Assembly: GCA_963768215.1 (NCBI GenBank)
Contig: CAVYHW010000045.1
Coordinates: 1,821-65,820, forward strand
Direction of reading: 5' to 3'
Origin: an uncultured Gammaproteobacteria bacterium
Lineage (GTDB): Bacteria; Pseudomonadota; Gammaproteobacteria; SZUA-229
DNA length: 64,000 bases
In this document: positions 12,463 to 53,751 of the stretch, in pieces
Layout of the letters: each line of letters opens with the position of its first letter
Numbering within the stretch: position 1 is the first letter of the stretch
Notes under the pieces: model-generated
The model's input: the letters and a program-made list of their open reading frames with translations, nothing else
What the model was told of the DNA's origin: nothing
Database searches by the model: none
Position numbers and translations under genes: made by a program

Positions 12463-13128
12463 ATGAACATTTCTGAAGCTTTACAACAACGAAAGTCCGT
12501 TCGAGCATTTCTTGACAAGCAGGTAGAAGAAGACAAGATCAACTTCCTTCTTAGTGCCGCCAGCCACGCACCCTCAGGCGCCAACATACAACCCTGGCAA
12601 GTAGCTGTAGTCACAGGAAAAACAAAGCAATCTCTGCAAACTAAGATCGAAAATGCTTTTCGAAGCGGTGATAAGGGCAAGGCGGATTACACTTATTATC
12701 CGGAGAAATGGACAGAACCATACAGAGCACGACGTCTCGCCTGTGGCTTACAGATGTACTCCGCTCTAGGTATAACGCGAGAAGACAAACAACGTCGACT
12801 AGATCAGTGGTGCGCAAACTACAGAGCTTTTGATGCACCAGTAATGCTGCTATTTTTCATGGAAGGTCATATGCAAACAGGATCATTCATTGATTATGGT
12901 TTATTTTTACAATCGATCATGCTGATCGCAACAGAACACGGTCTGGCTACCTGCCCGCAAGCATCACTGGCTGACTATCCACAGATCATAAAAGCAGAAT
13001 TAAATTACCCACAAGACAGTATCCTGATATGCGGCATGTCATTAGGATACGAAGATAAAAATGCCATAGTAAATAGTTATCGCACACCTCGTGAGGAAGT
13101 AAATTCATTCACACGATATTTTAGTTAG
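12463..13128 (+). CDS. Nitroreductase-family flavoprotein
   Basis: N-terminal QRKSVRAF and the NfsB-like fold signature (PSGANIQPW). Confidence 0.85.
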   Translation: MNISEALQQRKSVRAFLDKQVEEDKINFLLSAASHAPSGANIQPWQVAVVTGKTKQSLQTKIENAFRSGDKGKADYTYYPEKWTEPYRARRLACGLQMYSALGITREDKQRRLDQWCANYRAFDAPVMLLFFMEGHMQTGSFIDYGLFLQSIMLIATEHGLATCPQASLADYPQIIKAELNYPQDSILICGMSLGYEDKNAIVNSYRTPREEVNSFTRYFS

Positions 13129-13342
13129 AAAATATTTAGCATGTCTGAGGTCAGAGACAAAGCTCATGACAGCCCGTTCAGGGTCGGCAACAATCTATCA
13201 GCTCAGTATCACGACCGCGGATAAGCGGCCATTAAGCGACGCTCACTTGAATGACTTTGGATGCCTGCAATCAATCATAAGCGGACTTGAACGACTTTTT
13301 CTAACAACAAAGATCGCCACAATAGGAGACCTTCAAGATTGA

Positions 13343-13507
13343 TTAAATTTTAATCCCTCCGACACCCTCATATTCTCTTAAATGTCTGCGTGGACGGTAA
13401 TACGTTGCAAAGATTCGAACAGCATTGTCATCTGTTATGTAATCGTCGAGTCGATCAGGAAATAAAGTGGCTTGATTTCTATTTTCACCTTCAATGAAGT
13501 CAGTCAT
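13343..13507 (-). pseudogene. IS5/IS1182-like transposase N-terminal fragment (54 aa, truncated)
   Basis: Translation MTDFIEGENRNQATLFPDRLDDYITDDNAVRIFATYY matches the conserved N-terminus of IS5/IS1182-family transposases (…nRnQ..LfP..Ldd.ip.dhpvR.i..fvd). It is followed immediately (13548-13572) by a 25-bp end repeat. No DDE domain follows. Confidence 0.5.
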
Positions 13508-13547
13508 GACGATGCCTTTCTGAATGAAAGCTATATTATATAGAAGT

Positions 13548-13572
13548 TGGGGTTTTCACACAGTCTGGACCA
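13548..13572. repeat. Terminal repeat GGGGTTTTCACACAGTCTGGACC of the IS remnant, shared with the downstream MITE
   Basis: The same ~20-mer recurs at 14822-14840 (direct) and 14660-14678 (inverted). Confidence 0.6.
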
Positions 13573-14657
13573 GGAGCGGTCGCCCGTTGATGCGTATTAC
13601 GGGCGAGGTTAGGAGAAGAGGGAATCTATTAAATTAAACACCATGGCCATGCGCCGAAAGATGCATTACGATAACCGCAATAACCTAAACCTAAGGAACT
13701 GAACTGTCTCTTAAATCAGGCGGCTATCTGTCTAGATTGGTTTGACGACTTACAGGTTCAGAATCGGTAACTGAGTTCAAAAAAATGTAAATCAACCCCA
13801 CGGTTATTAGAGCCATAAAATCGGCATCAGAAAAGTGTTGAAACCGCCAACCGCCCACAATATTTCCTGGAAAATGATAAAAGATCCCGCCTTGACCAAT
13901 GATTTGAACGTGCCCTCCAAAATCTTGTTCGTCATAATGCTGGTTACTGAGAAAAGCCACACCGGTCCCAAATTCAGGCTCACATTCCAGTCCCGCTTCG
14001 TTAACGTGACACCCGGACCAGTAGTGGCGATAAATCCGTTCTCTCCGCCCCCATGCAACAGGCCGGCAGAAGCATACCATAGGTACCGCCCTTCCCATCC
14101 CCGCGGCCATTCCCAACTCCCCGGGAACCCGAAAATACCGAAGACATCATATTGATTAAATTTATGTTTTTCCTCGGGAGGAATCCCTCTTAAGTTCTCT
14201 CCTGCCCGAATCCCTACCGAGATAAGCTCAAATTTTTCAGATCCCTGGCTGTGACTTACTCAGGAAGAAAAAAGAAAAATACCAAACTAAGAAAGACACT
14301 AAGTTTTTTGGCGATGGACATAGAAAAACATCATAGAAAAAAGCATCTTACGGCAATAAAGGGGACGCCGACAACTGATAAACATTGTATTTGTCACCGA
14401 CTCCTTTAGCTTACATGAAGCGTTTTATGGTATGTACCGGGAGTCGGGATTGGGTCGCTCATCAGCACTCGATACACGACTCTGAAGTGCTCTCAAACCC
14501 GAAAGACTACGTAGGAATGGGCGGGAGCTTACTGCATTCTAATTGATAAGTAAGGATAAAGGAATAAAAGGGAGGTGTGTTTACTGATTTTCAAAGTATG
14601 AGAGAAGGTCCGTTATGTGTAGCGATTTCTAATATTAGCTGTGGCTAACAGACTGTT

Positions 14658-14842
14658 TTTGGCCCAGGCTGTGTGAAAAGTCGGGAAAAATTTGGGCCGA
14701 TGCTGAGCCAGCCCTAAATATGAAAGGTTGTGCATCAATATAGTGATAAAGATATCCACTTGAAACGAATTACTGCTCAATATCGGCGTTGATTTACCAC
14801 TTTCACAAATGACAATTAGTTTTCACACAGCCTGGACCCATA
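14658..14842. mobile_element. ~185-bp MITE-like element with 19-bp TIRs (GGCCCAGGCTGTGTGAAAA … TTTTCACACAGCCTGGACC)
   Basis: Inverted repeats with one mismatch, same sequence as the IS-fragment end at 13552. No ORF inside. Confidence 0.6.
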
Positions 14843-14905
14843 GCGGACGCTAGCTAGCTAATGTCATAAAGCCAGTTGCAGTCGACTGCCCTGAAGACCA
14901 CTGGA

Positions 14906-15484
14906 TTATTCGGTGGTTACTGGACTCTTCCAGATTCTGCGCAACATGCGGATCGCGACCTCTAAGCCGTCATAGGCTGTTTTCGGTTGAACTTCCTTGA
15001 ACTCATCCCAGTGATCGTTGGTGAAAGCACCATCTGCGATTTCACCTTCCGGATCGGACAGGTAATAGTGGACGCCACCAGGCTCGCCATTCGGTGACAT
15101 CATAATCTCCACCAGCAGCGCGTAATCCGTTCCGATGCCCGCCTTCCTGACCTGGGCAGCGAAAGCTTTCGCACTGTTCGCGACGATCTTTGTCTGATTG
15201 GGGCTGAACACGAAGTCGTATTGGACTCGTTCCTTTACGAGCAGCGGTTTCGCCAGCTCCTCGGTTTCCAGGAATGTCACGACTTTCTCCGCCATCGGGA
15301 TACTTGGATGAATGGTTCCCGGTGGTTTGATCACATTCACCGGGTATACCGATACGGAAACCGGTTCCGACCTGGCATGGAATTCCTTACTGGCTTCAGG
15401 TGAAATATAGGGATAACACGCTGACAATAATAGCGTTGCCAGCAGCAGAAAAGAAATACGGCAAATCTGACCCGAAAACGACAC
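14906..15484 (-). CDS. Putative lipoprotein (192 aa)
   Basis: Signal peptide plus lipobox LLLSAC; soluble domain of unknown function. Confidence 0.55.
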   Translation of the reverse strand: MSFSGQICRISFLLLATLLLSACYPYISPEASKEFHARSEPVSVSVYPVNVIKPPGTIHPSIPMAEKVVTFLETEELAKPLLVKERVQYDFVFSPNQTKIVANSAKAFAAQVRKAGIGTDYALLVEIMMSPNGEPGGVHYYLSDPEGEIADGAFTNDHWDEFKEVQPKTAYDGLEVAIRMLRRIWKSPVTTE

Positions 15485-32066: not shown

Positions 32067-32623
32067 GGAATCTCGGTACAGATATTTGTTGTAGTGGTAT
32101 AAGTCTTGGAAACACTACTAGAGGCACCAGCCGAAGTATCTTTACTACGTTCACTCCAGGTTATATCAATTTTTACTGTTGCCATTTTTGATGGCGCAAC
32201 AGCCGGTGTTACGGTAACAAGCGTTGTTGCTGCACCAGGCAAACCGGCTTTTAAATTCTGCTTCCACCAGTAAACATCATCCTGCGCCAGCTCCGTTTCA
32301 CTGCAATTTTTAGTACCTGTACAGGCACTGTTTACGCCGGCGCCAGCATAAGTCGCCAGCACCGAGGGATTGGCCCGCATGCTTTCAAAGAGCTCGTCAA
32401 CTTTCATCATGGCGACAGAACCATATACTGATGTTTTACCGGCCTGCAGAGAAATAGCCTGCAATGAAGCAATACCCAGCATACCCATAGAAAGAATCAG
32501 AAAACCTATTAAGGCCTCTAACAGGGTAAAGCCCTTGCTGTTGTTTATATGGCAGCTTTTTATATGGCTGTTTTGCCTGTTTATTAGTTTTACAGGTATT
32601 ATTTTTAGGGTTTTTATGGACAT
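32060..32623 (-). CDS. pilV: PilV-like minor pilin
   Basis: Prepilin motif KGFTLLEALIGFLIL. Overlaps pilW by 7 nt. Confidence 0.7.
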   Translation of the reverse strand: MSIKTLKIIPVKLINRQNSHIKSCHINNSKGFTLLEALIGFLILSMGMLGIASLQAISLQAGKTSVYGSVAMMKVDELFESMRANPSVLATYAGAGVNSACTGTKNCSETELAQDDVYWWKQNLKAGLPGAATTLVTVTPAVAPSKMATVKIDITWSERSKDTSAGASSSVSKTYTTTTNICTEIPC

Positions 32624-33204
32624 GAAATCACCGCCGCATTATCAGAGATACGTGCCCGACCTGACAAACTTAATATCACTGCACGAGAATCAAGCGTACT
32701 GCCCGAATCATCCAGACTGCATAAACTGAAAGTACCCGACTGCGAAGCCCCGGCAGCACTTCTAGGCAAGCCACGAGCATTAAAGGTAAACGAACTAATA
32801 TCAGCTCCTCCTGCATTCACACCTGCAACTGTCAACTGGTTGTCAGTAAATGCATCATGCACGCGTAATAAACAATCTGTACCGAGTGCAGCACATGGAG
32901 CGCCGGTGCCCTCAAGGTTACCGTCAGCATCAACAAATACGATCCAGCCATCTTCCCAATTATCTGTGCCGGGGCCGGTACATGATGTACCATTGGTGCT
33001 TTCACATATAGTCACGCTGGTATCAAGTTTAATCGCCTCAGTTCGGGCGAGATGCAAGGCCGAAACCAGTTCATTAGTAGAAGCTATAAGCTGATTGCCC
33101 TGCATAAATGTTTTTAGTGAAGGCAAACCTACCGTAAGCAAAATACTTACGATAGACAGGGTTACCATCAACTCAATCAGCGTAAATCCAGAATGTTTTT
33201 TCAT
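32614..33204 (-). CDS. fimT: FimT/FimU (GspH-family) minor pilin
   Basis: MKKHSGFTLIELMVTLSIVSILL, GspH-like. First gene of the fimT-pilVWXY1E block. Confidence 0.7.
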   Translation of the reverse strand: MKKHSGFTLIELMVTLSIVSILLTVGLPSLKTFMQGNQLIASTNELVSALHLARTEAIKLDTSVTICESTNGTSCTGPGTDNWEDGWIVFVDADGNLEGTGAPCAALGTDCLLRVHDAFTDNQLTVAGVNAGGADISSFTFNARGLPRSAAGASQSGTFSLCSLDDSGSTLDSRAVILSLSGRARISDNAAVISCP

Positions 33205-33331
33205 GACTGTAATTTAAGACCAGTTTTTTTGATTTGCCAGCAGATAATGACAGGGCGTGGTTTAAAGCAGATAAAAGGAAGAATTTAAGGTAAATACCAG
33301 AGACATGGCCGCTGTATTGCAATTTGTCTAC

Positions 33332-33603
33332 ACTAGGGCGCCTCTGATCAAATCTATTATGTTTCTGGCTTACAGGCTTGTTCGTAATCAAGACAGTATT
33401 TTGAAAGCATGTAGATACCTGGTGAAAAATACTAACGAAGAGTACGGGCAAGCCAGAAAGCCCCTCCGGGCGTGGCCTGAAGGGCACATCTGCCACGTTG
33501 CAAAGCTTGTTAAGGACTAAGGCCATTAACTTCACTTTGCGCCTTGCATCTGCACCCTTCAGGTCACGCAGAAGCATAATAGATTTGATCAGAGGCGCCC
33601 TAG
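33332..33603. mobile_element. 272-bp MITE-like element, copy A (29-bp perfect TIRs CTAGGGCGCCTCTGATCAAATCTATTATG)
   Basis: Near-identical copy at 41847-42117. Internal secondary palindrome (CCTGAAGGGCACATCTGC…GCATCTGCACCCTTCAGG). Confidence 0.8.
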
Positions 33604-33699
33604 GTAGCACTGCAATAAAACAAATAATAATTACTATTTACCGCACAATACAACTAATTCATATAAACTTTTATTACGAAAATTTACTAAGAAAATATT

Positions 33700-34248
33700 A
33701 TGAATTTAGACAGAGTCAGTTCAGGCAATAATATTCCTGAGGAAATTAATGTCATCATCGAAATCCCGGCACACAGCGACCCGGTCAAATACGAAGTTGA
33801 TAAAGAAACCGGCGCCATGTTTGTTGACCGTTTCATGAGCACAGCCATGCATTACCCCTGTAACTATGGCTATGTACCTCACACTCTGTCCAAAGACGGT
33901 GACCCTGTTGATGTGCTGGTAACCACACCGGTGCCTTTAATTGCTGGCTCTGTCATTCAATGCCGCCCGGTTGGTGTGCTCAAAATGACCGATGAATCTG
34001 GAGACGATGCCAAGATACTGGCTGTCCCCCTGGATAAACTTTGCAAATCATTTCGTAATGCTAAAACAATAGGCGACATGCAACCCATGCTGCTGGAACA
34101 AATTGCGCACTTTTTTGAACACTATAAAGATCTGGATGAAGGCAAGTGGGTACGTGTGGAAGGCTGGGGCGGCATTGATGAAGCCAAAGAAGAAATTATG
34201 TCCAGTGTTGCCATGTATAAAGAGGCGCCGGTCAAGCCAAACTTCTAA
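33700..34248 (+). CDS. ppa: Inorganic pyrophosphatase
   Basis: Family I PPase motifs ([11 protein letters not shown]…, DGDPVDVLV). Confidence 0.95.
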
Positions 34249-34304: not shown

Positions 34305-34550
34305 AAACTTATAACTTATAACACTGCTGTCCCGTTAACTTTTCCGAGAGGTCTACAAGCCATTGTTCTGTCTGGAAGATTTATGTTTATACTAGCCGAG
34401 ACATGGACTGGAACCCGTCGCCCGGGACACGCTGTAAATACCTCCATGTACGCTCGGATGCCGCGTCCATGCGGCATACGGTCCCAGGCGACGGGTTCCA
34501 GTCCACGCCTCTAACAGTTAACGGGACAGCAGTGAACTTATAACTTTAAT
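34305..34550. repeat. ~245-bp nested-palindrome element abutting the 3' end of tRNA-Thr
   Basis: Outer arms ACACTGCTGTCCCGTTAAC / GTTAACGGGACAGCAGTG. Inner arms GGACTGGAACCCGTCGCCCGGGAC / GTCCCAGGCGACGGGTTCCAGTCC. Central GATGCCGC-GTCCAT-GCGGCATAC. Confidence 0.7.
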
Positions 34551-34553
34551 TAT

Positions 34554-34630
34554 TGGTGCCGGAAGGGAGAATCGAACTCCCAACCTCGTCATTACGAGTG
34601 ACTTGCTCTACCAATTGGAGCTATTCCGGC
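34554..34630 (-). tRNA. tRNA-Thr (anticodon CGU)
   Basis: Reverse complement GCCGGAATAGCTCCAATTGGTAGAGCAAGTCACTCGTAATGACGAGGTTGGGAGTTCGATTCTCCCTTCCGGCACCA has a 7-bp acceptor stem, D and T arms (GTTCGATTC), anticodon loop CT-CGT-AA and an encoded CCA. Confidence 0.9.
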
Positions 34631-34650
34631 CTGTTTTAATCTCTAAACTG

Positions 34651-34747
34651 TAGGAGCGGACCAAAATATAATATCAGGGTTCCGCGAATGAGCTGCCAGC
34701 CAATGGCCAATTGCGGAACCCTGATATTATATTTTGGTCCGCTCCTA
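34651..34747. repeat. Perfect 35-bp-stem hairpin element between tRNA-Thr and thiO
   Basis: TAGGAGCGGACCAAAATATAATATCAGGGTTCCGC …27-nt loop… GCGGAACCCTGATATTATATTTTGGTCCGCTCCTA. Confidence 0.7.
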
Positions 34748-34758
34748 CGATTAACTTG

Positions 34759-41103: not shown

Positions 41104-41844
41104 TTAACGGTTCCATCTGGATTCATCACTGATTTCTTTCATCGTGTTTTCAATCCAGTCAGATACTTCCTTATTAATTTCCTCAGCCTTCCTGCCTTTT
41201 GTTTCAATCGCAGGCCCGATAACCACACTGATGGTACCCGGCCATTTTATAAAACTGTGTCTTGGCCAGAACTCGCCTGCATTATGCGCTATCGGTATCA
41301 CCGGATAACCGCTTTTCTGTGCCAGCAGGGCGCCGCCTATTTTATACTTGTGGGTCTTGCCCGGCGCGGTGCGTGTCCCTTCAGGAAACAAAACAATCCA
41401 TTTACCATTATTCAGTTTTTTTGTGCCTTCATCAATCAGCTGCTTAATGGCGACCCTTCCCGTGCCGCGATTAATCGCAATGGGATCAGTTAATGCCAGC
41501 GCCCAGCCAAAAACCGGGATATACATCAGTTCACGTTTGAACACCCAGTGCACAAGCGGCGTAAAAGAATGCAAAGCCAGGGTTTCCCAGGTTGACTGGT
41601 GCTTGCTCAATATAATTGCGGTTTCAACATTCAGGTTTTCCTGCCCCTTAACTTTGAAATCGATACCACAAAAAACCTTTAACAAAAAATTATTGGTATA
41701 TGACCATAAGCGGGCTATTTTTAAACGAAAAGTTGCCGGCATAAAAAATAATAAGACGACTAACAGGCCGAAAACGACGGTATTAATAATAAAGCCAAGC
41801 CAGAACAATAATGAACGGAAAAACAGGACGGGTTTTGATTCCAT
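41104..41844 (-). CDS. plsC: 1-acyl-sn-glycerol-3-phosphate acyltransferase
   Basis: HQSTWETL (HX4D-like) and FPEGTRT motifs. The start codon abuts the edge of MITE copy B. Confidence 0.85.
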   Translation of the reverse strand: MESKPVLFFRSLLFWLGFIINTVVFGLLVVLLFFMPATFRLKIARLWSYTNNFLLKVFCGIDFKVKGQENLNVETAIILSKHQSTWETLALHSFTPLVHWVFKRELMYIPVFGWALALTDPIAINRGTGRVAIKQLIDEGTKKLNNGKWIVLFPEGTRTAPGKTHKYKIGGALLAQKSGYPVIPIAHNAGEFWPRHSFIKWPGTISVVIGPAIETKGRKAEEINKEVSDWIENTMKEISDESRWNR

Positions 41845-41846
41845 AA

Positions 41847-42117
41847 CTAGGGCACCTCTGATTAAGTCTATTATGCTTCTGGCTTACAGGCTTGTTCGTA
41901 ATCAAGGCAGTATTTTGAAAGCATGTAGATACCTGGTGAAAAATACTAACGCAGAGTACGGACAAGCCTGTAAGCCCCACTGGGCGCGGCCTGAAGGATA
42001 CATCTGCCACGTTACAAAGCTTGTTAAGGACTAAGGCCATTAACTTCACTTTGCGCCTTGCATCTGCACCCTTCAGGTCACGCAGAAGCATAATAGACTT
42101 GATCAGAGGTACCCTGG
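41847..42117. mobile_element. 271-bp MITE-like element, copy B
   Basis: ~93% identical to 33332-33603 with the same TIRs. Squeezed between the plsC start and the gmhB stop. Confidence 0.8.
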
Positions 42118-42132
42118 TACTCCGTCAAGATT

Positions 42133-42675
42133 CTATTGTTGCAGTAGTGAAGTTACGGCTGAGGCAAGGTCGTCGAACACTGGAACAGATTCTTCGTGTT
42201 CTGCCTGCAATATTTTTTCTGCTTTTACCCCTTTTCCAGTACGTACCAGAATGGCCTGGGTAAGCGCATTACTGGCTGCCTTAATATCTGAAACACTATC
42301 GCCAATAAAAATAACATCCTTTAGCGGCACATTAAATCGCTGTCCAATCTGCAACAGCATGCCCGGTTTGGGTTTTCTGCAACTACAGCCTTCATCTGGT
42401 CCGTGTGGACAGTAAAACACAGCATCAACGCGGCCACCAATTTCTGCCAGCATATCATCCATTTTTTTATGCATCGCATTCAGGGCCTCAATATCAAAAT
42501 GCCCCCTTGCCAGACCCGACTGATTTGATGCAACAGCTACCGTATAACCACTATGATTTAAACGCGCAATAGCTTCAAGACTACCATCAATGGGGATCCA
42601 TTCTTCAGCGCTTTTGATATAAGCATCTGAATCATGGTTGATAACGCCGTCTCTATCTATAACAATTACTTTCAT
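42133..42675 (-). CDS. gmhB: D-glycero-D-manno-heptose-1,7-bisphosphate 7-phosphatase
   Basis: HAD motif VIDRDGVIN, with Cys-x-His-x-Cys zinc site (CPHGPDEGCSCRKP). Confidence 0.85.
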   Translation of the reverse strand: MKVIVIDRDGVINHDSDAYIKSAEEWIPIDGSLEAIARLNHSGYTVAVASNQSGLARGHFDIEALNAMHKKMDDMLAEIGGRVDAVFYCPHGPDEGCSCRKPKPGMLLQIGQRFNVPLKDVIFIGDSVSDIKAASNALTQAILVRTGKGVKAEKILQAEHEESVPVFDDLASAVTSLLQQ

Positions 42676-45724: not shown

Positions 45725-45827
45725 GTAAAATCTTATATCTTATTGAATAAAGTACAGATTATAACCTAAGCAAGCTCTAAATTACTGCGCTGGGTGGTGT
45801 TTCCAGCAAAAAAGGGCTATAACTAGT

Positions 45828-46100
45828 ACTCTATCAAGGTGGTTTTGATGATTTCAGCGCTACTGTGGTGTTTCGCAACTAGGCACAGTGCGCAGACAAT
45901 GGCCTTTGTCCTTGTCAAGTACTGTAACACAGGTGCGGAACGCCTCAGTAGCGCCCGAAGGGTTGGTCTGTCAGTATCCATGGCTGCGTTACGCCTCTTG
46001 CAAAGGACTATGGCCATTTGCTGCCCAGATCGTAGGCTTGGGTGCCTTGCCATGAATACTGACAGACCAACTGAAACCATCAAAACCACCTTGATAGAGT
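45828..46100. mobile_element. ~273-bp MITE-like element with 24-bp TIRs (TACTCTATCAAGGTGGTTTTGATG)
   Basis: Perfect outer inverted repeat plus a second inner pair (GGTCTGTCAGTATCCATGG / CCATGAATACTGACAGACC). Different family from the 33332/41847 element. Confidence 0.7.
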
Positions 46101-46129
46101 ACTGGATAAATGCTCAAAAAATCTTCTTA

Positions 46130-46711
46130 ATGTCGATAAGAAAACAGAGGATGAGAACGATGAGTAAACCATTAATCCTGAATTCATCTGAACTTTCACA
46201 GTGGCACAGACTGGTGCAGGATGCCGAGCAGGACTATGGCTGCCAGCTGGATGAAACCATGCAAAGTTATCTTGTCTTCACGCTGATGCGATTTACAAAA
46301 AACCAGCAGCTTAATTCAACAGCGCTTGCGCTTGATTACTTAACGTCGCTCCACCTTCCTGACAACTTATGCAGTGAGAAGCTGCGCAACATTGGCGACC
46401 AGTGTTTACTGGTATCCGGTTTATTTCCACAATCAGCTGAAAAACGGCAGGTTGATGTTAATTATTATGTCAATCTTGGGCGTTCCTCTTATCACCATAT
46501 TAGCACCCTGACGCAACGTGGCATCGCTGATTTATACCAGCAACTGGCAGAAAGTTTTGTATTATTAATGGATTTATTACAAACCATCAGACAGTACAGC
46601 ACACCCGCATTGCAACCGCTCGCGGCATTGGAGCTATGGCAGAAAACAGGGAGCCGGGCCGCATATAAACAGGTTTCAGATAGTGGCATTCCGTACATGA
46701 AAGTCTGCTAG
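46130..46711 (+). CDS. Hypothetical protein (~185-195 aa)
   Basis: The ORF continues from the MITE but plausible starts lie at 46130-46160 (RBS AGAGG). No recognisable domain. Confidence 0.45.
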   Translation: MSIRKQRMRTMSKPLILNSSELSQWHRLVQDAEQDYGCQLDETMQSYLVFTLMRFTKNQQLNSTALALDYLTSLHLPDNLCSEKLRNIGDQCLLVSGLFPQSAEKRQVDVNYYVNLGRSSYHHISTLTQRGIADLYQQLAESFVLLMDLLQTIRQYSTPALQPLAALELWQKTGSRAAYKQVSDSGIPYMKVC

Positions 46712-51736: not shown

Positions 51737-52318
51737 ATGAAACAGGCTTTATTTCCTTTAAACACCGTACTATTTCCTGGCAGCATCCTGCCATTAAAGA
51801 TATTCGAGCAACGTTATTTAAATTTAATTAAAGACTGCATGAAACAGCAAACGGGGTTTGTCACTGTTTTAATCAGCCAGGGCAAAGAAGTGGGTGCCGC
51901 ACCCAAAATATACTGCGTTGGCTGTTATGTAGAAATAATCGACTGGGAAGCATTGGCCAATGGACTACTGGGCATTAGCGTACAGGCAAAATACCGTGTG
52001 CGATTGTCAAACAGTTCGGTTAGAGATGATGGTCTATTACTGGCTGAAGCAACCCCTTTTGAATCCATGCCGGATATTAAACCCCCTCTGCCAGAAGTTT
52101 TTGGAGCATTCGCTGATACTTTAAAACAGCTGCTAAATCATCCATTTGCGTTACGCTATAAAGATAAAGTCGATTTCAATAACGCTAACGACATTTGCTA
52201 TCGCCTTAGTGAGCTACTACCCATCAGCAATAAACAAAAACAGCTGTTACTGGAATCAGAAACAATAGAACAAATACTTGATCAGCTTGCTTTACACATT
52301 AATGCATTACAAACATAA
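51737..52318 (+). CDS. Lon N-terminal (LON substrate-binding) domain protein
   Basis: LFPLNTVLFPGSILPLKIFEQRY… resembles the Lon-N/PUA-like domain. 193 aa with no ATPase or protease domain. Confidence 0.7.
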   Translation: MKQALFPLNTVLFPGSILPLKIFEQRYLNLIKDCMKQQTGFVTVLISQGKEVGAAPKIYCVGCYVEIIDWEALANGLLGISVQAKYRVRLSNSSVRDDGLLLAEATPFESMPDIKPPLPEVFGAFADTLKQLLNHPFALRYKDKVDFNNANDICYRLSELLPISNKQKQLLLESETIEQILDQLALHINALQT

Positions 52319-52325
52319 GAAATAA

Positions 52326-52456
52326 AAGCTTTTCACCACAGAGGCACAGAGTACACAGAGTTTAATCATTAAATTTGTTAGATGCGCCGTAGGCGCATCT
52401 AACTAAATAATGATTTTACTCTGTGCTCTCTGTGCCTCTGTGGTGAAAAGCTTTTA
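52326..52456. repeat. ~130-bp palindromic REP/MITE-like element, copy 1 (arms AAAGCTTTTCACCACAGAGGCACAGAGTACACAGAG)
   Basis: Near-perfect long hairpin with a palindromic core (GTTAGATGCGCC-GTAG-GCGCATCTAAC). Related copy at 53620-53735. Confidence 0.75.
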
Positions 52457-52496
52457 ATGCTAAAATCACCCGACAATATTAATTGAGGAAATATCA

Positions 52497-53258
52497 ATGG
52501 CCTGGTGGGGGACATTTATTGGCGGCACCTTAGGTTACGTTTTTGGCGGGCCAATCGGTGCACTCATTGGTGCGGCGCTCGGCGGCAACCTGGACCGCGG
52601 TATCAAAATGGGTGACCAGTTCGATACCGGCAACCAGGAACGTGTACAACTGGCTTTTTTTACAACTACTTTTTCTGTTATGGGCCATATTGCCAAGGCA
52701 GATGGTCATGTTAGCGCACAGGAAATTTCTTCCGCCAAAAACATTATGGCGCAAATGCAGTTATCTGCTCAACAGCGAAAAGCGGCCATTAAGCTTTTTG
52801 ACCAGGGCAAAGCCACTGGCTTTCCACTAGAAGAGGTATTACACCAGTTTAAAAAAGAATGTCATGGTCGGCGCAACCTGGTCCAGATGTTTATTGAAAT
52901 CCAGATTGCCACAGCACTGGCTGACGGCAAAATCGATAGCAGTGAAAAACGCATTCTTTATACTATTGGTGAAATTCTTGGTTTCTCACGCAGCCAAATT
53001 GAGCACTTATTTAATATCGCAAATGGCGCCAAGGCCAGCGCCAGTGAAACATTAACATTGACCCAGGCATACAAAATTCTTGGTGTTAGCAAAGGCAGCA
53101 GTGAGGCCGAAATTAAAAAAGCTTATCGACGCCTGATGAGTCAGCATCATCCTGACAAACTTGTGGCGAAAGGTTTGCCCGATGAGATGATTGCTCTGGC
53201 GACAGAAAAAACCCAGGAAATCAGAAAAGCATACGATTTAATAAAAAAACACTTATAG
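52497..53258 (+). CDS. djlA: DnaJ-like co-chaperone DjlA
   Basis: N-terminal TM, TerB-like middle domain, C-terminal J-domain (YKILGVSKGSSEAEIKKAYRRLMSQHHPDK). Confidence 0.85.
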   Translation: MAWWGTFIGGTLGYVFGGPIGALIGAALGGNLDRGIKMGDQFDTGNQERVQLAFFTTTFSVMGHIAKADGHVSAQEISSAKNIMAQMQLSAQQRKAAIKLFDQGKATGFPLEEVLHQFKKECHGRRNLVQMFIEIQIATALADGKIDSSEKRILYTIGEILGFSRSQIEHLFNIANGAKASASETLTLTQAYKILGVSKGSSEAEIKKAYRRLMSQHHPDKLVAKGLPDEMIALATEKTQEIRKAYDLIKKHL

Positions 53259-53589: not shown

Positions 53590-53618
53590 GACTGTACTGA
53601 GAAATAAGCTTTAAAAAC

Positions 53619-53735
<117 letters not shown>

Positions 53736-53751
53736 TCTTTATGTACTAAAG

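What the first reader, a model, noticed from the sequence alone, without database searches (positions are those of the whole stretch)
33332..33603. MITE family A: 272-bp element with 29-bp perfect TIRs, two copies (33332-33603 and 41847-42117)
The two copies are about 93% identical. Both are bounded by CTAGGGCGCCTCTGATCAAATCTATTATG and its inverse. Each carries an internal secondary palindrome (CCTGAAGGGCACATCTGC…GCATCTGCACCCTTCAGG). Neither has coding capacity; the ORFs in the six-frame track that cross them are spurious. Both copies sit in tight intergenic gaps, fimT|ppa and plsC|gmhB. This is a non-autonomous transposable element or a structured small-RNA gene family. The parent transposase is not in the window.
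Basis: seen in the sequence. Interest (0 to 1): 0.6.

Follow-up and report, generated by a model that had tools for sequence, protein, structure and literature searches.

The report
Miniature transposon family with CTAG duplications
The two 271-bp repeats are real copies of a small non-coding "jumping" DNA element (a MITE) that inserts at CTAG sites between genes of an uncultured marine gammaproteobacterium. It is an ordinary kind of element, but its three-hairpin shape is unusually well preserved.

Summary
There are two copies, at 33333-33603 and 41847-42117. They are 92-93% identical, their flanks are unrelated, and each has a 30-bp terminal inverted repeat (TIR).

The element core is GGCRCCTCTGAT…ATCAGAGGYGCC, 262-263 bp. 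The flanking CTAG is a 4-bp target-site duplication (TSD), not part of the TIR.
- Five loci elsewhere carry non-palindromic identical flanks (TAAA, TTAG, CAAG).
- An orthologous gmhB|plsC site in a relative holds a single CTAG exactly where the window has CCAG[element]CTAG.
- Both window sites lack the element in relatives at 86-94% protein identity. The plsC site is filled in a strain 96% identical in DNA.

More than 40 copies, in three subfamilies plus deletion derivatives, occur in metagenomes and MAGs.

The element folds as a 34-bp stem with hairpins of 96, 7 and 100 nt. Of 85 pairs, 35 show compensatory changes, but the pairing is strand-symmetric. There is no Rfam hit, terminator, conserved promoter or orientation bias, so a small-RNA gene is not supported.

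No parent transposase was found. CTAG duplication, GG termini and 10/16 identity to the IS5 inverted repeat point to an IS5-type parent; this is inference.

Verdict: a new member of a known kind, of moderate interest.

The parts
33333..33336 (.). Copy A, left target-site duplication CTAG
   Evidence: The 4-bp model is supported by non-palindromic identical flanks in other loci and by the empty site for copy B.
33337..33366 (+). Copy A, left terminal inverted repeat (GGCGCCTCTGATCAAATCTATTATGTTTCT). With the duplication it forms the 34-bp outer stem.
   Evidence: (I7). In alignment A2 the positions GG..CCTCTGAT.AAGTCTAT.AT are invariant or nearly so.
33367..33462 (+). Copy A, left internal hairpin (96 nt). 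The stem covaries. The loop carries conserved ATCAAG / TGAAAGCATG / GGTGAAAA motifs and a weak promoter-like TTGAAA-18-AAAAAT.
   Evidence: (helices 2 and 3: 17 of 28 pairs with double changes).
33463..33469 (+). Copy A, central mini-hairpin (part of GCCCC-loop-GGGC). The stem is invariant and the loop is variable.
33470..33569 (+). Copy A, right internal hairpin (100 nt) with the invariant AAGGACTAAGGCCATT terminal stem-loop.
   Evidence: (helices 5-8). The module is shared with the sister element at 45823-46105.
33570..33599 (-). Copy A, right terminal inverted repeat
   Evidence: (I7).
33600..33603 (.). Copy A, right target-site duplication CTAG
41847..41850 (.). Copy B, target-site duplication CTAG. 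It lies 2 nt from the plsC start codon (ATG at 41844-41842 on the minus strand).
   Evidence: The orthologous empty site in L069 reads ...gagcaCTAGttATGgaatcaaaacc.
41851..42113 (+). Copy B core (263 bp): TIR 41851-41880, left hairpin 41881-41976, mini-hairpin 41977-41983, right hairpin 41984-42083, TIR 42084-42113. On the minus (mRNA) strand the last TIR reads CAGAGGTGCC, which holds an SD-like GAGGTG 10 nt before the plsC ATG.
   Evidence: The same insertion is present in a 96%-identical strain (L010/L066).
42114..42117 (.). Copy B, second copy of the duplication, decayed to CTGG (CCAG on the gene strand)
45823..46105 (+). Sister element (family B). Flanks are CTAG/CTGG and the TIR is TACTCTATCAAGGTGGTTTTGATGATTTCAG, sharing the CTCT(G)ATCAAG core. 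The geometry is the same: 34-bp stem, then 98, 7 and 110 nt. The interior is homologous to the family A hairpin module.
   Evidence: I6; nhmmer E = 4e-11.

Best explanation
[quoted passage not shown] It is a 262-263-bp non-coding DNA transposon with about 30-bp terminal inverted repeats beginning GGCRCCTCTGAT. A transposase encoded elsewhere cuts it out and pastes it into YTAR tetranucleotides, mostly CTAG but also TTAA, TTAG and TAAA. The tetranucleotide is duplicated on insertion.

Shown:
- The element is multi-copy and dispersed.
- It makes a 4-bp target duplication.
- Both window sites lack the element in relatives, and for copy B the unduplicated CTAG target is seen.
- Deletion derivatives, and an element with an unrelated interior, keep the same ends.

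Inferred:
- The mobilising enzyme is a DDE transposase of the IS5 type.
- The interior is a three-branch foldback (34-bp stem, then hairpins of 96, 7 and 100 nt). It is kept paired by compensatory changes that are equally good on either strand. The most likely level is therefore DNA. Either foldback of a single strand helps bring the two ends together, or imperfect palindromes are corrected by template switching during replication. A strand-specific RNA is less likely.
- The target contains a stop codon, the TIR carries stop codons reading inwards in two of three frames, and it carries an SD-like GAGGTG reading outwards. Copies can therefore survive at gene boundaries.
- Copy B sits inside the glyS-gmhB-plsC gene string, 2 nt from the plsC ATG, so it must be transcribed through.
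For: - **Copies and flanks.** Two copies are 92-93% identical with unrelated flanks.
- **Spread.** The TIR motif recovers 3 genome loci and 63 metagenome loci, about 40 of them with paired ends. Most are 262-263 bp. Deletion forms of 56-190 bp keep both TIRs.
- **Ends as the mobilised unit.** L018:4984-5228 has the same ends and an unrelated interior.
- **Duplication.**
  - About 19 of 35 non-redundant elements have identical flanking 4-mers.
  - Five of these are non-palindromic: TAAA twice, TTAG twice, CAAG once.
- **Copy B site in relatives.**
  - L069 has a single CTAG in homologous context, where the window has CCAG[element]CTAG.
  - L067 and L070 have gmhB and plsC 6-7 nt apart.
- **Copy A site.** The fimT|ppa spacers of three relatives are 230-290 nt without the element, against 495 nt in the window.
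- **IS5 resemblance.** CTAG is the reported IS5 duplication (PMC10379815). The IS5 inverted repeat GGAAGGTGCGAATAAG matches the MITE end GGCACCTCTGATTAAG at 10 of 16 positions, anchored at the tip.
- **Structure.**
  - Folding z = -13 as RNA and -12 as DNA.
  - 35 of 85 pairs show double changes, and 96.5% of cells are paired.
  - Covariation score is 0.32, against 0.15 shuffled and 0.04-0.08 slid.
- **Strand symmetry.** Mean MFE difference between strands is 2.6 of about 140 kcal/mol. G·T versus A·C cells number 146 versus 173.
- **Gene-boundary insertions.**
  - A start codon lies within 0-6 nt of the duplication in winB, L003, L057, L027, L002, L015 and L006.
  - The adjacent gene's stop codon lies inside the duplication in L014, L025, L026, L052, L046, L053 and L030.
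Against: - No autonomous element with these ends was found. There was none in the window, none in 469 kb of related loci, and none in plasmid or viral collections. The transposase family is therefore unproven.
- A 10/16 match to one IS5 inverted repeat is weak evidence.
- Compensatory change in internal hairpins, conserved loop sequences, and the same 34/96-98/7/100-110 geometry in a sister family with different ends go beyond what a decaying MITE needs. They hint at a constraint that is not explained.
- CCAG…CTGG flanks at five loci (L011, L016, L039, L049, and the same locus as L011 recovered again as L033) are inverted rather than direct repeats. I read them as symmetric decay of CTAG, but they could mean the outer bases belong to the foldback.
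- The outward SD-like GAGGTG is buried in the 34-bp stem in the predicted transcript fold, so its use is doubtful without processing or unwinding.
- The gene-boundary counts rest on crude ORF calls and have no null model.
Confidence: 0.85

Rival explanations
1. The element is, or has become, a structured RNA module. It would be a small-RNA gene family, or a cis-acting RNA co-transcribed with neighbouring genes that acts as an RNase III processing site, a stability element or a translational insulator. Its mobility would be secondary.
For: - The fold is very stable.
- Covariation is strong, with conserved loop motifs and an invariant-stem mini-hairpin.
- The same geometry occurs in a sister family.
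- Copy B must be transcribed within glyS-gmhB-plsC.
- A weak TTGAAA-18-AAAAAT sits in the left loop of both copies.
Against: - Pairing is strand-symmetric and no G·U excess appears on either strand.
- There is no Rfam family at gathering thresholds, and only chance-level hits at E up to 10.
- There is no terminator.
- The promoter-like -10 box is lost in the L002-type subfamily.
- Orientation relative to co-directional flanking genes is about 6 sense to 7 antisense.
- The target duplications and empty sites show that it moves as DNA.
Confidence: 0.1
2. The element moves as a folded single strand of DNA, recognised by its hairpins rather than by double-stranded TIRs. It would be REPIN/RAYT-like, or mobilised by another HUH-type or still undescribed enzyme. 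That would explain why the whole foldback is conserved.
For: - Compensatory changes occur in every helix, are symmetric on both strands, and include TIR positions 3-4 (GGCACC/GGTGCC, GGTACC/GGTACC, GGAACC/GGTTCC, GGAGCC/GGCTCC).
- The single-stranded DNA fold has z = -12.
- The interior of the left hairpin is inverted in L054.
Against: - By my own knowledge of these families, known HUH elements (IS200/IS605, RAYT/REP) make no target duplication and have no long TIRs. This element makes a 4-bp duplication, shown by a filled/empty pair.
- Deletion derivatives that lose whole hairpins but keep the TIRs still occur with duplications, for example L003, L017 and L039.
- An element with an unrelated interior uses the same ends.
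Confidence: 0.04
3. The two copies are a local segmental duplication, or a non-mobile repeat fixed in this genome.
For: Only two family A copies lie in the 64-kb window.
Against: - Identity ends exactly at the element borders.
- Dozens of copies sit in unrelated contexts in other genomes.
- Both sites are empty in relatives.
Confidence: 0.01

Closest known systems
IS5 (IS5 family, IS5 subgroup) and MITEs derived from such elements
   Same: - A 4-bp duplication of CTAG/YTAR (PMC10379815).
- Ends begin with GG.
- 10 of 16 terminal bases are identical to the IS5 inverted repeat GGAAGGTGCGAATAAG.
   Different: - No transposase gene, and no autonomous copy found.
- The TIR is about 30 bp, against 16 bp in IS5.
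- The interior is a conserved three-hairpin foldback, not remnants of a transposase gene.
Correia elements (NEMIS) of Neisseria (own knowledge)
   Same: - A small, abundant MITE with long TIRs.
- Inserted next to genes and co-transcribed.
- The TIRs form a long double-stranded RNA stem of the kind RNase III cleaves.
- It can alter expression of the downstream gene.
   Different: - Correia elements are about 100-155 bp, duplicate TA and carry an IHF site.
- There is no sequence similarity.
- This element is 263 bp with two extra internal hairpins and a 4-bp CTAG duplication.
ERIC/IRU and related enterobacterial and Yersinia palindromic repeats (own knowledge)
   Same: - Imperfect palindromes in intergenic transcribed regions.
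- The foldback is preserved between copies.
   Different: - ERIC is about 127 bp, without a defined duplication or a known transposase.
- There is no sequence similarity.
- This element has clear TIRs, a target duplication and filled/empty sites.
Chunjie MITE of Geobacter uraniireducens (own knowledge: Chen et al. 2008, Genetics)
   Same: A MITE reported as inserted into an operon without destroying it. This parallels copy B between gmhB and plsC, and L003 between a kinase and its regulator.
   Different: - A different host and different ends.
- No claim there of a conserved three-hairpin interior.
- I could not re-read that paper here.
MITEs of Candidatus Thiomargarita nelsonii (Flood et al. 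2016, PMC4853749)
   Same: Abundant palindromic MITEs with no identifiable parent IS, in uncultured marine gammaproteobacteria. Some disrupt genes.
   Different: Those have a 10-bp direct repeat with a 19-bp inverted repeat (the hupL MITE), or TATAG ends (the dsrA MITE). This one has a 4-bp CTAG duplication and a 30-bp TIR.
REPIN/REP elements mobilised by RAYT (own knowledge)
   Same: A whole-element hairpin with compensatory changes. Non-autonomous and intergenic.
   Different: REPINs are about 100 bp doublets of 20-40-nt REPs, with a conserved 5' tetranucleotide and no target duplication. This element makes a 4-bp duplication, and its ends alone suffice.

Membership tests
Bacterial MITE | Small size (under about 500 bp) and no coding capacity | tested here: met
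   The core is 262-263 bp. No frame is open in all copies, with 0-7 of 25 open per frame. The stems covary as nucleic acid, not as codons.
Bacterial MITE | Terminal inverted repeats | tested here: met
   Arms are 35-36 nt at 92-97% complementarity. The TIR core is invariant across 25 copies.
Bacterial MITE | Target-site duplication of fixed length | tested here: met
   The duplication is 4 bp. Flanks are identical in about 19 of 35 elements, including non-palindromic TAAA, TTAG and CAAG. A single CTAG sits at the orthologous empty site.
Bacterial MITE | Multiple dispersed copies and presence/absence polymorphism | tested here: met
   Two copies in the window and more than 40 in 66 loci. Sites are empty in L067, L069, L070 and L071-73, and filled in L010/L066.
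Bacterial MITE | A cognate autonomous IS with the same ends | tested here: not met
   No pair of ends 600-5000 bp apart encloses a transposase. Solo ends are truncations. Nothing was found in plasmids or viral contigs. The source genome beyond the window could not be searched.
IS5 family (IS5 subgroup) derivative | 4-bp duplication with a CTAG/YTAR target | tested here: met
   The IS5 target is as stated in PMC10379815.
IS5 family (IS5 subgroup) derivative | Ends resembling IS5-group inverted repeats (GG…) | tested here: inconclusive
   10 of 16 positions match E. coli IS5A ends read from NC_000913.3. Only one comparison was made and no ISfinder library was available.
IS5 family (IS5 subgroup) derivative | Mobilised by a DDE transposase of the IS5 type | not testable with these tools
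   tblastn with InsH1 found nothing in 469 kb of held DNA. This needs the complete genome and a transposition assay.
REP/REPIN (RAYT-mobilised) | No target duplication; short REP palindromes with a conserved 5' tetranucleotide; an associated RAYT gene | tested here: not met
   A 4-bp duplication is present. The unit is 263 bp with 30-bp TIRs. No RAYT gene was looked for beyond the window ORFs.
IS200/IS605-derived PATE | Asymmetric subterminal hairpins, no TIR, no duplication | tested here: not met
   The TIRs are symmetric and a duplication is present.
Described structured RNA family (Rfam) | Match to a covariance model at its gathering score | tested here: not met
   No hit at gathering score over the window. 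At E up to 10 only miRNA and sRNA chance hits appear, at 15-18 bits against gathering scores of 70 or more.
Strand-specific RNA gene (generic) | One strand folds better (G·U tolerated, A·C not); own promoter and terminator; orientation bias | tested here: not met
   MFE is symmetric between strands. G·T versus A·C cells number 146 versus 173. There is no terminator and only a weak, non-conserved promoter-like site. Orientation is about 6 to 7.

The most novel reading that the evidence does not exclude
The conserved Y-shaped foldback is itself a functional unit and not a by-product of palindromy. It consists of a 34-bp stem and hairpins of about 96, 7 and 100 nt. Its loop motifs are invariant, its stems are compensated, and it is shared by two families with different ends. 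It could be the form in which an undescribed transposase recognises the element, as a folded single strand that nevertheless makes 4-bp duplications. Alternatively it could be a mobile RNA or DNA module that the host tolerates or uses at gene boundaries, where it would supply stop codons, an SD and a processing site.
Probability: 0.15. Interest if true: 0.65.

Novelty: new member of a known kind. Interest (0 to 1): 0.38.

Why it matters
- **Annotation.** The ORFs that cross the repeats (33173-33610, 33305-33520, 41783-42091, 45839-46711) should not be called as genes. The repeats also break metagenome assemblies: L010 and L066 both end inside copy B.
- **Biology.** The family shows how a MITE can sit 0-6 nt from start codons and on top of stop codons in compact operons. 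Its CTAG/TTAA target regenerates the stop, and its end carries an SD-like GAGGTG.
- **Open question.** A three-hairpin interior is preserved by compensatory change across three subfamilies and a sister family. This is a clean data set for asking whether palindrome maintenance in bacterial MITEs comes from selection (foldback needed for mobilisation, or RNA function) or from templated correction.
- **Why not more.** None of this changes the category. It is a MITE without a known parent.

Tried and rejected
- **Parent IS.**
  - I scanned all held loci for ends 600-5000 bp apart, and for ORFs next to solo ends. The only such pairs are ends of two neighbouring elements (L018) or a weak, unpaired one-mismatch match (L009, L015, window), and none encloses a transposase. 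Solo ends are truncated copies.
  - tblastn with E. coli InsH1 against 469 kb found nothing.
  - Pfam on ten unassigned window ORFs found no transposase.
  - blastn against 72,556 plasmids and a TIR scan of IMG/VR were both empty.
- **Strand-specific RNA.** RNAalifold on the plus strand alone gave a 4:1 excess of G·U over A·C. This was an artefact of predicting on one strand. With the union of structures predicted on both strands the counts are 146 versus 173.
- **Coding or in-frame insertion, as in Rickettsia RPEs.**
  - A net insertion of 267 nt is a multiple of 3 in about half the copies, and some frames are open.
  - The one intragenic case (L002) has several in-frame stops. Rejected.
- **IHF site and outward hybrid promoter in the TIR.** I inspected these by eye and found no convincing match. 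Not pursued.
- **Exact empty site for copy A.** The spacer is too diverged between relatives to align base by base. Only absence and the length difference could be shown.
- **Source organism.**
  - Exact look-ups of window proteins failed.
  - Cluster names say only 'MAG: Gammaproteobacteria bacterium'.
  - A literature search for the metagenome accession prefixes found nothing.

Full report
**1. The observation**

The window holds two copies of a 271-nt unit, at 33333-33603 and 41847-42117. They align without large gaps at 92-93% identity. Identity stops at the unit's borders, so the flanks are unrelated.

Each copy has long inverted termini: 35 nt at 97% complementarity in copy A and 36 nt at 92% in copy B (repeats I7 and I9). 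The 21-nt TIR core occurs four times in the window against zero expected.

Either strand of copy A folds to -141 kcal/mol as RNA, with z about -13 against dinucleotide shuffles. As single-stranded DNA it folds to -78 kcal/mol with z = -12.

- Base 33332 is flank.
- The 29-nt perfect TIR applies only to copy A and includes four bases that are not part of the element (see section 3).
- Copy B's ends differ from the quoted string at several positions.
- There are two large internal hairpins, not one.

The neighbours are as stated. Copy A lies between a GspH/FimT-like minor pilin gene (32614-33204, minus strand) and inorganic diphosphatase (33700-34248, plus strand). Copy B lies between a PlsC-like acyltransferase gene (41104-41844, minus strand) and gmhB (42133-42675, minus strand).

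**2. The family elsewhere**

A degenerate TIR pattern found 3 loci in species-representative genomes. These are MAGs labelled only Proteobacteria or Gammaproteobacteria. It found 63 loci in metagenome contigs.

BLAST and a Hamming scan show about 40 elements with both ends. Most have 262-263-bp cores.

An alignment of 25 non-redundant full-length copies (A2) resolves three subfamilies at about 70-90% identity:
- the window type;
- the L002/L008/L019/L050/L057 type;
- the L004/L030/L046/L064 type.

Shorter members of 56-190 bp keep both TIRs and have lost one or more internal hairpins. Examples are L039, L017, L015 and L003. L031 and L053 carry nested small palindromes.

L018:4984-5228 has the same ends and an unrelated interior. 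The ends are therefore the unit that is mobilised.

**3. Target-site duplication and mobility**

The conserved core is GGCRCCTCTGAT…ATCAGAGGYGCC. The four bases outside it are mostly CTAG on both sides.

Five loci carry identical non-palindromic flanks: TAAA/TAAA (L003, L064), TTAG/TTAG (L017, L065) and CAAG/CAAG (L018). A TIR extension would predict inverted flanks, not direct ones.

The decisive case is copy B.
- On the gene strand the window reads ttgacggagtaCCAG[element]CTAGttATGgaatcaaaacc.
- The orthologous spacer in L069 (GlyS 87% identical) reads ttgatagagcaCTAGttATGgaatcaaaacc, with a single CTAG.
- Two further relatives, L067 and L070, have gmhB and plsC 6-7 nt apart.
- A strain 96% identical in DNA (L010, L066) carries the insertion, and both of its contigs end inside it.

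For copy A, three relatives with Ppa 91-94% identical have fimT|ppa spacers of 230-290 nt, against 495 nt in the window. An nhmmer profile of the family finds nothing in any of the seven orthologous loci. The copy A spacer is too diverged to read the empty site base by base.

The commonest departures from CTAG/CTAG are CCAG on the left and CTGG on the right. They occur singly or together. I read this as symmetric decay of CTAGG, noted in section 9. It is a minor point against the pure duplication model.

**4. What mobilises it**

No autonomous partner was found.
- No pair of ends encloses a transposase.
- Solo ends are truncations.
- The window ORFs that lacked an assignment are ordinary genes.
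- InsH1 finds nothing by tblastn in 469 kb of held sequence.
- Plasmid and viral collections are empty.

The source genome outside the window could not be searched.

The inference of an IS5-type parent rests on three points.
- A 4-bp duplication of CTAG is the reported hallmark of IS5 (PMC10379815).
- The ends begin with GG.
- 10 of 16 tip-anchored positions match the E. coli IS5A inverted repeat (GGAAGGTGCGAATAAG against GGCACCTCTGATTAAG).

This is suggestive and not proven.

**5. The foldback and what maintains it**

Both window copies fold as a 34-bp outer stem (duplication plus TIR) that closes a junction with three branches: a 96-nt hairpin, a 7-nt mini-hairpin and a 100-nt hairpin.

On A2, RNAalifold predicts 85 pairs, 35 of them with changes on both sides. 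The pair count gives:
- 96.5% of cells paired;
- 206 doubly changed cells against 65 ± 7 in shuffles;
- a covariation score of 0.32, against 0.15 in shuffles (0 of 500 reach it) and 0.04-0.08 when partners are slid.

Loop segments are conserved in sequence across subfamilies while the stems change. These segments are ATCAAG, TGAAAGCATG, GGTGAAAA and AAGGACTAnGGCCATT. That pattern looks like a functional RNA, so I tested strand specificity.
- The minimum free energies of the two strands differ by only 2.6 kcal/mol on average out of about 140. The sign favours the strand opposite to my reference orientation.
- With a strand-neutral set of pairs, the union of predictions on both strands, G·T cells number 146 and A·C cells 173.
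- The 4:1 G·U excess in the plus-strand prediction alone was an artefact of predicting on one strand.

The other RNA-gene criteria also fail.
- There is no Rfam match and no terminator.
- There is one weak promoter-like site in the left loop, and its -10 box is absent in another subfamily.
- Elements between co-directional genes lie about 6 sense to 7 antisense, on crude ORF calls.

I conclude that pairing is maintained at a level that treats both strands alike. The candidates are selection for foldback of either DNA strand during mobilisation, and template-switch correction of quasi-palindromes during replication. The second is established knowledge and produces 'compensatory' changes without selection. 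The data cannot separate them.

Symmetric variation at TIR positions 3-4 can also be explained by both ends having to match one transposase.

**6. A sister family in the window**

The family profile also hits 45845-46047 (E = 4e-11). That lies inside another element, 45823-46105.
- It is flanked by CTAG/CTGG.
- Its TIR is different (TACTCTATCAAGGTGGTTTTGATGATTTCAG) but shares the CTCT(G)ATCAAG core.
- Its geometry is almost identical: a 34-bp stem, then 98, 7 and 110 nt.
- Its interior contains the AAGGACTAnGGCCATT hairpin module in both orientations.

Conservation of architecture and of one module across two families with different ends is the least ordinary feature found. It is the basis of the novel reading.

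**7. Consequences for the host (inferred)**

The target contains TAG or TAA. The TIR read inwards has stops in two of three frames. Read outwards, it ends …CAGAGGTGCC, which holds a six-base SD-like GAGGTG 6 nt plus the flank distance from whatever follows.

Among 35 non-redundant elements:
- at least seven have a start codon 0-6 nt beyond the duplication: window copy B (plsC), L003 (a response regulator, where the native SD has been displaced), L057, L027, L002, L015 and L006;
- seven have the neighbour's stop codon inside the duplication: L014, L025, L026, L052, L046, L053 and L030.

In L002 the element splits an AhpD/CMD-like ORF. The 267-nt insertion keeps the frame but introduces stops, and an ATG follows 5 nt after the duplication.

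Two caveats apply. These counts have no null model. In the predicted fold of the gmhB-element-plsC transcript, the GAGGTG is buried in the outer stem. It could act only after unwinding or cleavage, for example by RNase III as described for Correia elements (own knowledge).

**8. Comparison with known systems, and verdict**

The element meets every structural criterion of a bacterial MITE except an identified parent.
- It works like an IS5-type non-autonomous element, but membership of the IS5 lineage is unproven.
- It is not a REPIN or PATE, because it has a duplication and TIRs.
- It is not a Correia element, because its duplication, size and sequence differ.
- It is not one of the Thiomargarita MITEs described by Flood et al..
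- It matches no Rfam family.

It is a new family of a known kind. Interest is moderate. The finding is ordinary in category, but it offers a well-resolved target rule, clean filled/empty sites and an unexplained conserved three-hairpin architecture.

**9. Other things seen**

The window holds several further palindromic repeats, listed under 'noticed in passing'. The lineage seems rich in such elements.

Noticed in passing
window 45823-46105: A second MITE (sister family B) between glyQ and the next gene. Flanks are CTAG/CTGG, arms are 38 nt at 92% complementarity, and the fold is -157 kcal/mol. It has the same 34/98/7/110 architecture as family A and shares an internal hairpin module with it. 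The listed ORF 45839-46711 starts inside it and is probably mis-started.
   Followed up: partly
window 52318-52461 and 53615-53740: Two copies of a palindromic element of about 145 bp. The arms are 49-54 nt and contain CACCACAGAGGCACAGAGTACACAGAG. They bracket a TerB-DnaJ-domain ORF (52497-53258), which suggests a possible composite arrangement or two independent insertions.
   Followed up: partly
window 34322-34536 and 34650-34748: Two more hairpin elements on either side of tRNA-Thr(CGT) (34554-34630, minus strand). One is a nested palindrome, with outer arms CACTGCTGTCCCGTTAACT and inner arms at 34398-34511. The other is a 99-nt palindrome with 41-nt arms at 95% complementarity.
   Followed up: no
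window 13552-13583 / 14819-14850 (and 14738-14833 against L006:2170-2265): Another short dispersed repeat, in a gene-poor stretch (13128-14906). It also occurs in a metagenome locus at 79% identity.
   Followed up: no
flanks of elements in the window (42114-42117, 46102-46105) and in L009, L011, L016, L025, L027, L039, L048, L049, L052: The duplicated CTAG most often decays to CCAG on the left and CTGG on the right, that is CTAGG to CCAGG on each outward strand. This is the direction expected from very-short-patch (Vsr/Dcm-type) repair bias. That link is an idea from memory and was not tested.
   Followed up: no
L054:6298-6567: One family A copy has the interior of its left hairpin inverted relative to all others, as if the hairpin tip had flipped. 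The rest of the element is colinear.
   Followed up: no
L014:2715-3010: A truncated second copy abuts a full copy and shares the CTAG between them. This suggests repeated insertion into the same target.
   Followed up: no
L002:924-1484: A family A element splits an AhpD/carboxymuconolactone-decarboxylase-like ORF. The 267-nt insertion keeps the frame but adds stops. The C-terminal half restarts at an ATG 5 nt after the TTAA duplication, behind the element's GAGGTG.
   Followed up: partly
L069:3690-3880: The gmhB-plsC spacer of this relative has no MITE. It carries instead a tandem repeat of about 190 nt, with units containing ccgtccatccatggacat, just upstream of the empty CTAG site.
   Followed up: no
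L010 and L066 (Ga0316188 contigs): Both contigs of a 96%-identical strain end inside copy B, at window positions 42006 and 42013. The element breaks short-read assemblies.
   Followed up: yes
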